From the NCBI RefSeq assembly GCF_054482525.1, contig NZ_CM137006.1: 64,000 nucleotides of DNA. The stretch is one strand, 5' to 3'. Each line of letters starts with the position of its first letter. The stretch's first letter is position 1. Below are positions 55,574 through 58,500 of the stretch, in pieces. Made by a program: the position numbers.

Positions 55574-58500
55574 TCAAGAAAGGCACCTGGGGCTGAAACG
55601 GTTAATGGCGAGATAATTTGCGGAAAGTTCAGATGATGAAAAGAAATAAATATCCTCCGGCATAGCCGGAGGTTTTTCAAATGCGCCTATAAGGCTCTCT
55701 TACCAGCCGCGCCCTAACAGGCGCACACGATCTGACATTTGCATCCAACTTCGTTACTTACGGCCCGTAAACGGGCTGCCCGGATAGGGAATCGATAACT
55801 GCTCTCCCATTTTATCCTCTTCAAGCTGGTGCTTTATGTAATCCTGTATCTTCGCCGTGTTCTTACCCACCGTATCGACGTAGTACCCTCTGCACCAGAA
55901 CTCCCTGTTCCTGTATTTGAATTTCAAATCACCAAACTGCTCGTAAAGCATCAGACTGCTTTTCCCTTTCAGATATCCCATAAAGCCGGATACGCTCATT
56001 TTGGGCGGGATCTCCACAAGCATATGGATATGATCTGCACAGCATTCAGCTTCCAGAATCCGTACACTTTTCCACTCACACAGCTTTCTCAAAATACTGC
56101 CTATTGCTCTACGCTTCTCTCTGTAGAACACCTGTCTTCGGTATTTTGGCGCAAAAACTATGTGATATTTACAGTTCCATCGGGTGTGCGCTAAGCTCTT
56201 TTCGTTCCCCATTGGGACCCCCTTTTGATTTCTTGTTTGACACTTGCAGTTGCCAGACCGCAAGGTGTTTTAACAAATCAAAAGGGGTTTTAATAACTGG
56301 CTTAAAGCTGAAAGCTTTCCGGAACCCCCAGCCTAGCTGGGGGTTTTCTGTGCACAAAAATGCCGGATGACACGAGGGTCATCCGGCATTACATCAGGAA
56401 ACCAACAGCTGGTTCATACGGCGAATAAACAGGTTCGGATCTTCCAGCGTACCGCGCTCTGCCAGCAGCGCCTGATCCAGCAGCAGTTCTACCCACTCGC
56501 TGAACTTCGCTTCATCTTCAGTATCTGCCGCACGTTTCACCAGTACGTGATCCGGGTTCAGTTCGAAGATGTATTTCACTTCTGGCACTTTCTGGCCCGC
56601 CGCAGCGAACAGTTTCGCCATCTGAGTGCTCATTTCGTCCGCGTCGGTAGAAACAATCGCTGGCGTATCGGTCAGACGGTGAGTCAGACGGACATCTTTC
56701 ACGCGCTCGCCGAGCAGGGCTTTCACACGGTCGATGAACGGAGTCAGGGCTTTCTCCGCTTCTTTCGCGCTCTCATCAACTTCGTCAGCCAGTTTTTCCA
56801 GCGACTCGTCAACTTTAGACACAGACTGGAACGGTTTACCGTCGAACTCAGTCAGATAGTTCATCATCCACTCATCGATGCGGTCGGAAAGCAGCAGAAC
56901 TTCGATGCCTTTCTTACGCAGCAGTTCCAGGTGCGGGCTGCTCTTCGCTGCCGCATAGCTGTCTGCAGTGATGTAGTAGATTTTCTCCTGCCCTTCTTTC
57001 ATGCGGGAAACGTAGTCTTCCAGAGACACGGTCTGCGCAGAAGAATCGGTATGAGTAGACGCAAAACGCAGCAGTTTGGCGATCGCTTCCTGGTTAGCGA
57101 AATCTTCCGCCGGACCTTCTTTCAGTACCAGGCCAAACTGTTGCCAGAAGGTCTGGTATTTTTCCGCGTCGTCTTTCGCCAGTTTTTCCAGCATTTGCAG
57201 CACACGCTTGGTCAGCGCATTGCGCAGGTTACGCGTTACCGTGCTGTCCTGGAGGATTTCACGGGAAACGTTCAGCGGCAGATCGCTGGAGTCAATCAGA
57301 CCACGCACGAAGCGCAGATAGTTCGGCATGAACTGTTCTGCGTCGTCCATGATGAACACACGCTGGACGTACAGTTTCAGGCCATGTTTATGATCGCGGT
57401 TCCACATATCCCACGGAGCCTGGGACGGAATGTACAGCAGGCTGGTGTACTCCTGCTTACCTTCAACGCGGTTGTGGCTCCAGGTCAGCGGATCGTTAAA
57501 GTCGTGGGCGATGTGTTTGTAGAACTCTTTGTACTCTTCATCGGTGATTTCCGACTTGTTACGAGTCCATAGCGCCTGCGCTTTGTTGATTTTTTCCCAG
57601 GAGATAACGGTTTCGCCGTCTTTCTCTTCGCGTTTTTCGATCTCTACCGGCAGCGCGATATGGTCGGAGTATTTGCTGATGATGGAACGCACGCGCCAGT
57701 CATCGAGGAACTCGTCTTCGCCTTCACGCAGATGCAGGGTGATTTCAGTACCACGATCTTCTTTGGTGATGTCGGCAACGGTGTATTCACCTTCACCAGC
57801 CGATTCCCAGAAAACACCGTTTTCTGGTTTTTCGCCTGCCGCGCGAGTACGCACGGTCACTTTGTCGGCCACTATAAACGCAGAGTAGAAACCAACACCA
57901 AACTGACCGATCAGCTGGCTGTCTTTCGCCTGGTCAGAACCCAGGGATTCGAGGAATGATTTGGTGCCGGATTTAGCGATAGTCCCCAGATGGTCTATCA
58001 CTTCGTCGCGGGTCATCCCCACGCCGTTATCGGAGATGGTCAGCGTGCGCTTGTCTTTATCGAAAGAGACACGAACGCGCAGTTCGCCATCACCTTCGTA
58101 CAGATCCGGGTTAGAGAGCGCACGGAAACGCAGCTTGTCCGCCGCATCGGAGGCGTTAGAGATAAGCTCACGCAGGAAGATTTCTTTATTGGAATAGAGA
58201 GAATGGATCATCAGGTGCAGAAGCTGCTTCACTTCTGACTGAAAACCACGAGTTTCTTGTCCTTTCATGTAGGTCTACCTCAATAATGCCATTTTAAGGT
58301 TAAAAACAGGATGAGGGAGAGATGGGGACAAGGGGGAATAATTTCAAGCGAGAGCAGGTGATCCTGCTCTCGTTTGCTTAAAAACGAATCTTATGACGCC
58401 CGGCAAGGGAGTGTGACAGCGTGGTGCCATCGACCATTTCCAGCTCGCCGCCAACCGGTACGCCATGAGCGATTCGGCTGGCTTCCACGTCATATTGCGC

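What the first reader, a model, noticed from the sequence alone, without database searches (positions are those of the whole stretch)
55650..56357. IS200 inserted between the htpG terminator and the adk promoter
The htpG-adk spacer is about 890 bp here against about 180 bp as recalled for K-12; the extra DNA encodes an IS200 TnpA and carries a perfect 19-nt hairpin (cccccagcctagctggggg). A second hairpin with a T-tract (cctccggcatagccggaggttttt, about 55,653-55,678) lies near the other end. The insertion separates adk from any read-through from htpG and could change adk expression.
Basis: partly seen in the sequence, partly recalled or inferred. Interest (0 to 1): 0.3.

Follow-up and report, generated by a model that had tools for sequence, protein, structure and literature searches.

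The report
IS200C insertion in htpG terminator tail
The extra DNA between htpG and adk is an intact copy of the small insertion sequence IS200C, sitting in the T-run of the htpG transcription terminator, where elements of this kind usually land; it is an ordinary, already annotated mobile element.

Summary
The window matches E. coli PCN033 at 100% over the 1001 bases compared. Its htpG-adk spacer is 892 bp against 180 bp in K-12 and other strains. The extra 711-712 bp is an intact IS200C on the minus strand, at 55645..56355, plus one T that cannot be assigned to either side. It has a 152-aa Y1/HUH transposase, hairpins near both ends, no terminal inverted repeats and no target duplication. Its left end matches the Rfam IS200 family (STnc490) over the full length.

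Only 6 of 5426 complete E. coli genomes carry an IS here. They represent two independent insertions, 3 bp apart and in the same orientation. Both lie in the T-run just after the htpG terminator hairpin.

This fits a general pattern. In 98 non-redundant IS200-type left flanks from many phyla, 76 abut a terminator-like hairpin plus T-run, against 1.4% of random positions. In 34 complete elements, 30 have a hairpin at the left boundary and 1 at the right.

The 143 bp of native DNA upstream of adk is untouched, so an effect on adk is possible but unshown. Verdict: known element, low novelty.

The parts
56359..56390 (-). htpG intrinsic terminator hairpin (AATGCCGGATGAC-CCTCGT-GTCATCCGGCATT). It starts 3 nt after the htpG stop codon and forms the structured part of the insertion target.
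   Evidence: Inverted repeat I2. The same hairpin with its full T-rich tail is flagged as terminator-like in K-12. RNA fold.
56356..56360 (-). TTTTT run directly 5' of the IS left end. It is the remaining part of the terminator T-tract and the target pentamer.
   Evidence: Filled and empty site comparison. Left-flank pentamers of 34 complete elements: TTTTT 17, TTGTT 5, TTATT 4; 33 of 34 end in TT.
55645..56355 (-). IS200C, 711 bp, running from GTGCACAGAAAA... to ...ATATTTATT. One further T (55644 or 56356) cannot be assigned, so 712 bp is inserted relative to empty sites.
   Evidence: Empty-site alignments. Tandem right-end|left-end junctions in Y. pestis read ...ATATTTATT|GTGCCCAG. Other copies at up to 100% identity. 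RefSeq annotation as IS200C.
56323..56345 (-). Left-end hairpin AACCCCCAGC-TAG-GCTGGGGGTT, at IS nt 11-33. In Salmonella IS200 this hairpin is described as a bidirectional transcription terminator. Here it is also presumed to be the hairpin bound by TnpA.
   Evidence: Position agrees with nt 12-34 in Ellis 2015 (PMC4513863). The terminator role is taken from that paper. TnpA binding is inferred from family architecture.
56222..56345 (-). Full-length match to Rfam RF01405 (STnc490), covering the IS200 left end and the tnpA 5'UTR.
   Evidence: 146.1 bits (gathering score 56), E=2.6e-31, model positions 1-124 of 124.
56219..56287 (-). [quoted passage not shown]
   Evidence: Inverted repeat I1. 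MFE fold of -40 kcal/mol pairs the SD. Corresponds to nt 69-138 in PMC4513863.
56204..56293 (+). [quoted passage not shown] Coordinates are approximate and inferred by homology.
   Evidence: Description in PMC4513863, mapped onto the window. Not measured here.
55754..56212 (-). tnpA, 152 aa including the HUH motif (H61-I-H63) and Tyr125. Intact, and annotated as WP_000526135.1.
   Evidence: Y125F is the catalytically dead mutant in PMC4513863.
55682..55725 (-). Interior imperfect inverted repeat of the right end (TGCGCCTGTTAGG ... CCTTATAGGCGCA).
   Evidence: (I4).
55654..55672 (-). Right-end hairpin CCTCCGGC-TAT-GCCGGAGG, 9 nt from the IS end. It looks like a terminator on both strands.
   Evidence: Conserved in E. 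coli, Y. pestis and Edwardsiella copies; Vibrio has CCACCGGC...GCCGGTGG.
55645..55653 (-). Right terminus ATATTTATT. The final TTATT resembles the target pentamers.
   Evidence: Invariant in the E. coli and Y. pestis copies, with a variable next base (T 21, C 6, A 4, G 3).
55502..55644 (-). Native adk upstream region, intact. It contains a weak candidate promoter: TTGAGG (55577..55572), 17 nt, TGG-TATCGT (-10 hexamer at 55554..55549).
   Evidence: Collinear with empty sites apart from SNPs. The promoter is a sequence guess only; the consensus scan found none.
54857..55501 (-). adk coding sequence, downstream neighbour of the IS.

Best explanation
An intact IS200C has inserted on the minus strand into the T-run that follows the htpG intrinsic terminator hairpin, 143 bp upstream of adk. 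IS200C belongs to the IS200 group of the IS200/IS605 family, whose members carry tnpA only.

Family mechanism (taken from work on IS608 and ISDra2, not tested here): the HUH/Tyr transposase TnpA binds the hairpins near each end on one DNA strand. It excises that strand as a circle and pastes it 3' of a short target sequence in single-stranded DNA, without duplicating the target.

Here the target was a T-rich pentamer (TTTTT) immediately 3' of a GC-rich hairpin. That is the same arrangement as the element's own right end, a hairpin followed by ...TTATT.

Inferred: IS200-type elements actively prefer 'hairpin + T-run' sites, which are intrinsic terminators. A conserved GAAAA just 5' of both end hairpins is the likely guide that reads the T-rich cleavage and target sites.

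Expression of tnpA is expected to be kept very low, as published for Salmonella IS200, by three elements whose sequences are all present here. These are the left-end terminator hairpin, the stem-loop that sequesters the SD, and the antisense RNA art200.

The likely consequence for the host is small. The htpG terminator loses the distal part of its T-tract but is backed up by the IS left-end hairpin. The adk upstream region is untouched.
For: Identity of the element:
- Pfam Y1_Tnp E=3.8e-38.
- NCBIfam transpos_IS200 147.7 bits against a cutoff of 55.
- PDB relatives include the IS608 and ISDra2 TnpA structures.
- HUH motif and Y125 are present.
- Rfam STnc490 146 bits.
- RefSeq calls it IS200C.

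Insertion:
- The spacer is 892 bp against 180 bp, and alignment with three empty sites places the junction in the T-run.
- Six filled/empty comparisons show no duplication beyond 0-1 T.

Hot spot:
- Only 6 of 5426 genomes carry an IS here.
- PCN033 and B20105 have junctions 3 bp apart, identical IS bodies and diverged flanks, which indicates two events.

General pattern:
- Every other E. coli site examined has the left end abutting a hairpin plus T-run downstream of a co-oriented gene. The neighbours are uhpT, pqqU, luxS, plaP and glcA, plus two sites with no annotated upstream gene.
- 76 of 98 left flanks across phyla are terminator-like, against 272 of 20000 random positions (p about 5e-121).
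- A hairpin lies within 12 nt of the left boundary in 30 of 34 elements and of the right boundary in 1 of 34 (Fisher p=1.4e-13).
- GAAAA next to the left-end hairpin is conserved in most of the diverged left-end variants from other taxa; some Mailhella and Desulfovibrio copies have GAAAC or GAACC. It is also present 5' of the right-end hairpin.

Regulatory elements: positions match those published for Salmonella IS200 and fold as expected.
Against: - No experiment here shows transposition, terminator function or any effect on adk.
- The terminator adjacency could partly reflect survival of harmless insertions rather than target choice.
- For IS608, duplex DNA next to the target does not stimulate integration (PMC5027513). 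A stimulating role for the hairpin therefore has no direct precedent.
- The guide role of GAAAA is an analogy only.
- The element length differs by one T between sites (711 or 712), so the exact cleavage position is not fixed by these data.
- ISfinder could not be queried, so the isoform name rests on the RefSeq annotation.
Confidence: 0.9

Rival explanations
1. The terminator adjacency is a survivorship effect. IS200 inserts at any single-stranded T-rich pentamer, and only copies that land just after terminators are harmless enough to persist.
For: Terminator tails are among the few places where a 0.7-kb insertion disrupts neither a gene nor a promoter. IS200 transposes so rarely (PMC4513863) that all copies seen here have passed through selection. 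For IS608, adjacent duplex DNA does not stimulate integration.
Against: The precision argues against it. The hairpin's 3' end lies 14-22 nt upstream of the IS left-end hairpin, so only a few nucleotides before the IS start, in 76 of 98 sites. The bias is strictly one-sided: 30 of 34 at the left boundary against 1 of 34 at the right. Two independent insertions lie 3 bp apart at htpG. Intergenic T-runs without hairpins would also be tolerated, yet they are almost absent among the sites.
Confidence: 0.3
2. The insertion has a real regulatory effect. It uncouples adk from heat-inducible htpG read-through, or otherwise alters adk expression, and was retained for that reason.
For: The IS adds two terminator-like hairpins between htpG and adk and shortens the htpG T-tract. 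Three of the six carrier genomes are 100% identical over the locus, so the insertion is stably inherited.
Against: Only 6 of 5426 genomes carry it. htpG already has a strong hairpin terminator in empty sites. All 143 bp upstream of adk, including the candidate promoter, is intact. Other IS200C copies sit at similar terminator positions next to unrelated genes, so no adk-specific explanation is needed.
Confidence: 0.12
3. The region is native intergenic DNA, or a decayed and immobile IS relic.
For: None found, beyond the published view that IS200 is largely dormant.
Against: 5419 of 5425 genomes that carry the locus lack the insert. The tnpA ORF is intact, is annotated as WP_000526135.1 in several other genomes, and has the HUH motif and Y125. 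Both ends are complete. The IS body is 100% identical between two independent insertions, which implies recent mobility.
Confidence: 0.01

Closest known systems
IS200 of Salmonella enterica (IS200 group, IS200/IS605 family)
   Same: About 0.7 kb with a single tnpA ORF of 152 aa. The left-end hairpin is at the same position (nt 11-33 here, 12-34 published). The stem-loop that sequesters the SD is at nt 69-137 here, 69-138 published. The SD AAGGGGGT is identical. The Rfam STnc490 match is full-length.
   Different: This is the E. coli isoform IS200C, 711-712 bp against 707 bp. Its sequence was not compared directly with a Salmonella copy here.
IS1541 of Yersinia pestis
   Same: The right end is near-identical and the terminus (...GGAGGATATTTATT) is the same. 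The 19-nt left-end hairpin is identical, and the preference for a hairpin plus T-run at the left flank is the same. From my recollection, Odaert et al. 1998 (J Bacteriol 180:178) proposed terminator-like stem-loops as IS1541 hot spots. That paper was not available to check.
   Different: The left-end leader is GTGCCCAG rather than GTGCACAG. Length is 710 bp by the same end definition. Copy number in Y. pestis is much higher, with tandem copies.
IS608 / ISDra2 (IS200/IS605 family paradigms)
   Same: Homologous Y1 HUH transposase (PDB 2a6m E=3.9e-19, 2xm3 E=1.9e-16). Hairpins near both ends, no inverted repeats, no target duplication, and insertion 3' of a short specific sequence.
   Different: Those elements also carry tnpB, and their targets are fixed (TTAC, TTGAT) with no reported hairpin requirement. 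IS200C has no tnpB, and its target is a degenerate T-rich pentamer next to a hairpin.
Bacterial group IIC introns (functional analogy only, from general knowledge)
   Same: Mobile elements that home to the 3' side of intrinsic terminator hairpins, a position that minimises harm to the host.
   Different: They are retroelements with a ribozyme and a reverse transcriptase, with no sequence or mechanistic relationship to IS200.

Membership tests
IS200/IS605 family, IS200 group | Encodes a Y1 (HUH, single-tyrosine) transposase TnpA | tested here: met
   Pfam PF01797 E=3.8e-38, 130.7 bits against cutoff 23. NCBIfam NF033573 transpos_IS200 (equivalog) 147.7 bits against cutoff 55. HUH at residues 61-63 and Y125. 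PDB homologues 2ec2, 2f4f, 2a6m, 2xm3.
IS200/IS605 family, IS200 group | No terminal inverted repeats; hairpins near both ends | tested here: met
   Left-end hairpin 56323-56345 and right-end hairpin 55654-55672; the termini GTGCAC... and ...TTATT are not inverted repeats.
IS200/IS605 family, IS200 group | Inserts without target-site duplication, 3' of a short specific sequence | tested here: met
   Six filled/empty comparisons: three exact and three with a single ambiguous T. Left-flank pentamers are T-rich, and 33 of 34 end in TT.
IS200/IS605 family, IS200 group | About 0.7 kb with tnpA as the only ORF (no tnpB) | tested here: met
   711 bp. The only Pfam-supported ORF is tnpA.
IS200/IS605 family, IS200 group | IS200-specific left-end / 5'UTR RNA structure (terminator hairpin plus stem-loop that sequesters the SD) | tested here: met
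   Rfam RF01405 146.1 bits against gathering score 56, full length. Fold. Positions agree with PMC4513863.
IS200/IS605 family, IS200 group | Single-strand 'peel and paste' transposition catalysed by TnpA | not testable with these tools
   Only indirect evidence: identical IS bodies at two independent junctions imply recent mobility.
IS200C isoform (ISfinder name) | Sequence identity to the ISfinder IS200C reference | not testable with these tools
   ISfinder is not available. RefSeq/PGAP labels the protein 'IS200/IS605-like element IS200C family transposase'. Other E. coli copies carrying that label are 98.4-99.7% identical or 98.9-100%.
Intrinsic (Rho-independent) terminator of htpG, as the insertion target | GC-rich hairpin followed directly by a T-tract at the 3' end of the gene | tested here: met
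   In K-12: 13-bp stem, 6-nt loop and tail TTTCTTTTCA, flagged by the scan. In the window the hairpin is intact but the tail is cut to TTT|GTGCACA and is no longer flagged. Termination activity itself was not measured.

The most novel reading that the evidence does not exclude
IS200-group transposases may actively home to intrinsic terminators in bacteria of many phyla. They would recognise a hairpin followed by a T-rich pentamer, which mimics the element's own right end, and read it with a conserved GAAAA guide next to each end hairpin. Homing would explain why these elements are so benign and long-lived. It would also make every terminator a potential hot spot, as the two independent hits 3 bp apart at htpG suggest. 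If this has not been described mechanistically, it would add a structure-dependent mode of target choice to a family known for purely sequence-guided targeting.
Probability: 0.25. Interest if true: 0.5.

Novelty: already known. Interest (0 to 1): 0.18.

Why it matters
For this window it matters little. The finding is a correctly spotted, already annotated IS200C copy that probably leaves htpG and adk expression largely unchanged.

It has some use as a lineage marker, because 6 of 5426 complete genomes carry it, from two separate events. It is also a caution for adk-based MLST amplicon design.

The wider pattern is more interesting. IS200-type elements sit almost always directly after a terminator hairpin plus T-run, on their left side only, in bacteria from Enterobacteria to Bacillota and Desulfovibrionaceae. 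That pattern is relevant to how single-strand transposons choose targets and stay harmless. It has been noted statistically (bioRxiv 10.1101/2025.07.22.666184) and, as I recall, for IS1541 in 1998. It is therefore a confirmation and extension, not a discovery.

Tried and rejected
- The MAFFT alignment of filled and empty sites placed the gap wrongly, aligning the IS right-end hairpin with the htpG terminator. I re-derived the junctions by eye and by BLAST of separate flanks against K-12.
- The sigma-70 consensus scan found no promoter in the spacer, either in the window or in K-12. The adk promoter given in this report is only a weak sequence guess.
- Literature searches for an explicit statement that IS200 targets terminators found one supporting source, a preprint reporting statistical enrichment.
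- Odaert 1998, Beuzon & Casadesus 1997 and Cornelius 2009 are not held.
- A search for the adk promoter or htpG-adk co-transcription gave nothing usable.
It also picked up a different Ruminococcus element that uses the same hairpin at its right end, and a few unrelated contexts (L047, L049, L050, L081, L083, L090, L103-L113). These were excluded from the left-flank statistics by requiring TTC after the hairpin.
- The strict hairpin detector missed 22 of 98 flanks. Most of these show imperfect hairpins by eye, so 76 of 98 is a lower bound.
- I considered whether the hairpin stimulates integration as adjacent duplex DNA. The IS608 data do not support stimulation.
- A replication-strand bias could not be tested properly. 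Five of six mapped E. coli sites are co-oriented with replication, but that is close to the genomic background.
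Full report
**Observation**

The window region matches Escherichia coli PCN033 (NZ_CP006632.1) at 100% over the 1001 bases compared. All genes here lie on the minus strand, in the order recR, htpG (56394..58268), a 152-aa ORF (55754..56212), adk (54857..55501) and hemH.

The htpG-adk spacer is 892 bp.
- cccccagcctagctggggg at 56325..56343, extendable to a 10-bp stem at 56323..56345
- cctccggcatagccggagg followed by ttttt at 55654..55677

**What it is**

The ORF is a Y1/HUH transposase:
- Pfam Y1_Tnp E=3.8e-38
- NCBIfam transpos_IS200 147.7 bits against a cutoff of 55
- solved relatives include the IS608 and ISDra2 TnpA structures
- HUH motif H61-I-H63 and Tyr125 are present; Y125F is the catalytically dead mutant used by Ellis et al. 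2015 (PMC4513863)

RefSeq annotates the protein as WP_000526135.1, 'IS200/IS605-like element IS200C family transposase'. The left end gives a full-length Rfam STnc490 match (146 bits against a gathering score of 56, E=2.6e-31).

The published landmarks of Salmonella IS200 map almost exactly:
- the terminator hairpin, nt 12-34 published, is at nt 11-33 here
- the inverted repeat that sequesters the SD, nt 69-138 published, is at nt 69-137 here
- the SD AAGGGGGT is identical

The antisense sRNA art200 should therefore lie at about 56204..56293 on the plus strand. That position is inferred, not measured.

**Exact ends**

MAFFT misplaced the gap, so I compared flanks directly. On the minus strand the window reads ...GTCATCCGGCATTTTT|GTGCACAGAAAACCCCC...GGAGGATATTTATT|TCTTTTCATC. 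Empty sites read ...GGCATTTTTCTTTTCATC.

I BLASTed the flanks of six filled sites against K-12, taking the IS as GTGCAC...ATATTTATT (711 bp). Three sites were exactly precise and three had one extra T. The tested sites were htpG (two junctions), uhpT, pqqU and glcA (two strains).

Two further observations fix the termini. Tandem IS1541 copies in Yersinia pestis show the junction ...ATATTTATT|GTGCCCAG. The base after ...TTATT is variable across 34 complete elements.

The element is therefore 55645..56355, with one unassignable T at 55644 or 56356. It has no inverted repeats and makes no target duplication.

**Rarity and recurrence**

IS200C-like DNA occurs in 3096 of 5426 complete E. coli genomes. 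A copy covering at least 80% of the element occurs in 2063, with up to 35 places per genome. Only six genomes have an IS between htpG and adk, and they fall into two groups:
- PCN033, SCU-102 and 19KM1776 are 100% identical to the window.
- B20105 and two assemblies of strain 405 are 98.6% identical.

Alignment of PCN033 with B20105 shows three things. The 711-bp IS bodies are identical. The flanks differ at about ten SNPs. The junction is shifted by 3 bp (GGCATTTTTCTT|GTGCAC...TTATT|TTCATT). These are two independent insertions in the same orientation, both in the T-run just 3' of the htpG terminator hairpin.

**The target is a terminator**

In K-12 the simple scan flags this hairpin as terminator-like: 13-bp stem, 6-nt loop, tail TTTCTTTTCA. 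In the window the hairpin is intact but its tail is cut to TTT|GTGCACA, and it is no longer flagged.

Every other E. coli IS200C site I examined has the same layout. The IS left end abuts a GC hairpin plus T-run, and where an upstream gene is annotated it is co-oriented with the IS. The annotated neighbours are uhpT, pqqU, luxS, plaP and glcA. Two further sites have no annotated upstream gene.

The loci came from Oxalobacter, Peptococcaceae, a Bacillota MAG, Vibrio, Mailhella, Desulfovibrio, Saccharibacteria, Elusimicrobia, Brenneria, Edwardsiella, Pluralibacter, Dickeya and Y. pestis.

| Measure | IS flanks | Control | Statistic |
|---|---|---|---|
| Strict terminator-like hairpin plus T-run next to the left end | 76 of 98 non-redundant flanks | 272 of 20000 random positions (1.4%) | binomial p about 5e-121 |
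| Hairpin within 12 nt of the left boundary | 30 of 34 complete elements | 9.3% of random positions | binomial p about 4e-27 |
| Hairpin within 12 nt of the right boundary | 1 of 34 complete elements | left boundary, 30 of 34 | Fisher p=1.4e-13 |

The left-flank pentamers are TTTTT (17), TTGTT (5), TTATT (4) and single variants. Of the 34, 33 end in TT.

**How it most likely works**

Established for the family from IS608 and ISDra2 (PMC5027513; PMC2806898):
- TnpA binds the hairpins near each end on one strand.
- It excises that strand as a circle.
- It integrates the circle 3' of a short sequence in single-stranded DNA, preferentially on the lagging-strand template.

Shown here:
- The target of IS200-type elements is a T-rich pentamer next to a hairpin.
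- This resembles the element's own right end, a hairpin followed by ...TTATT.
- GAAAA immediately 5' of the left-end hairpin is conserved in most left-end variants whose other leader bases differ, and it is also found 5' of the right-end hairpin. Some Mailhella and Desulfovibrio copies have GAAAC or GAACC instead.

Inferred:
- GAAAA is the guide for the T-rich cleavage and target sites, by analogy with IS608.
- The hairpin is part of target choice and not only a by-product of selection.

The one-sidedness, the nucleotide-level spacing and the double hit at htpG favour active choice. I put this at about 0.65. The selection-only model is not excluded, and IS608 integration is not stimulated by adjacent duplex DNA.

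In PCN033 the tnpA sense strand is co-oriented with htpG at about 0.56 Mb. That would place the active strand on the lagging-strand template, assuming the usual replichore layout. I did not verify that assumption.

**Consequences for htpG and adk**

Transcripts leaving htpG now meet three elements in turn:
- a terminator with a shortened U-tract
- 12 nt later, the IS left-end hairpin, described as a bidirectional terminator that protects against impinging transcription
- at the far end, the right-end hairpin with a U-rich tail, terminator-like on both strands

The 143 bp of native DNA upstream of the adk ATG is unchanged apart from SNPs. It includes a weak candidate promoter, TTGAGG-17-(TG)TATCGT at 55577..55549. 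I conclude that adk keeps its own promoter region and is at least as insulated from htpG as before. A regulatory effect is possible but nothing supports it, and it cannot be tested with these tools.

**Comparison and novelty**

The element meets every testable defining feature of the IS200 group of the IS200/IS605 family, and it is already annotated. Its closest relatives are Salmonella IS200 and Y. pestis IS1541.

The terminator association is not new in outline. [quoted passage not shown] It interprets this as limiting transposase expression. IS1541 also sits between pheL and pheA, at the attenuator, in Yersinia (PMC3082878). From memory, Odaert et al. 1998 proposed terminator-like stem-loops as IS1541 hot spots, but I could not open that paper.

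What this analysis adds:
- exact ends for the element
- two independent events at one terminator
- the strict left-side asymmetry
- the breadth of the pattern across phyla
- the candidate GAAAA guide

**Verdict**

The element is ordinary and already known, so interest is low.

Noticed in passing
window 54920..54922 (adk codon 194, minus strand): The adk allele in the window encodes Val194 where the common E. coli protein (WP_001220233.1, e.g. strain B20105) has Ala. It is the only amino-acid difference. RefSeq gives it a separate accession, WP_001366519.1.
   Followed up: partly
L012 (E. coli B20105, NZ_CP142925.1) 1553..2443; also strain 405: A second, independent IS200C insertion lies at the htpG terminator, 3 bp further into the T-run. 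Its IS body is identical, but the flanks are diverged and 711 bp is inserted rather than 712.
   Followed up: yes
window 56222..56345: The Rfam STnc490 model matches the tnpA-sense strand (left-end hairpin plus 5'UTR stem-loop). The sRNA art200/STnc490 is described in PMC4513863 as antisense to the tnpA 5'UTR. The Rfam family therefore appears to model the opposite strand from the published sRNA.
   Followed up: no
L004 (E. coli S1-CAM-04-C) against L015 10731..10996 (K-12 uhpU): In that strain IS200C is inserted downstream of uhpT at K-12 position 3845732/3. This is 2 nt before the annotated 3' end of the 3'UTR-derived small RNA UhpU, so the IS cuts the sRNA's terminator T-tract.
   Followed up: partly
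L115, L116, L118 (Yersinia pestis NCTC5923): Head-to-tail tandem IS1541 copies have the junction ...GGAGGATATTTATT|GTGCCCAGAAAA. Either one copy used another's right end (hairpin + TTATT) as its target, or these are retained circle-junction-like dimers. L132 has one extra T at such a junction.
   Followed up: partly
L103-L113 (Ruminococcus MAG RUG14215), also L047 and L050: The identical 19-nt hairpin CCCCCAGC-TAG-GCTGGGGG occurs near one end of a different repeated element (...AAAGAAATA[hairpin]ATGCTTATT|variable flank). That element also ends in TTATT. Most copies lie at contig ends.
   Followed up: no
L092 640..780 (Dickeya undicola): A solitary left-end hairpin is flanked by inverted copies of the left-end leader (GTCTATAGAAAA[hairpin]TTTTCTATAGAC), forming a 43-nt perfect palindrome with no tnpA. 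It sits between a terminator-like hairpin plus T-run and an A-run plus hairpin. It may be a miniature derivative or a remnant of an IS200-type end.
   Followed up: partly
L021-L102 (many phyla): The exact 19-nt left-end hairpin is conserved in IS200-type elements of Bacillota, Desulfovibrionaceae, Saccharibacteria, Elusimicrobia, Vibrio and Enterobacterales, while the 12-nt leader in front of it varies. Many copies sit about 90-110 nt from contig ends, which shows that these repeats break assemblies.
   Followed up: partly
L013 / L014 (E. coli, downstream of glcA): Another IS200C site has a left-flank hairpin (GCCGGATGATC...GATCATCCGGC) that resembles the htpG terminator hairpin. As a result, BLAST extended the match 31 nt beyond the IS. 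The copy in strain 2015C-4136CT1 has a frameshifted tnpA.
   Followed up: partly
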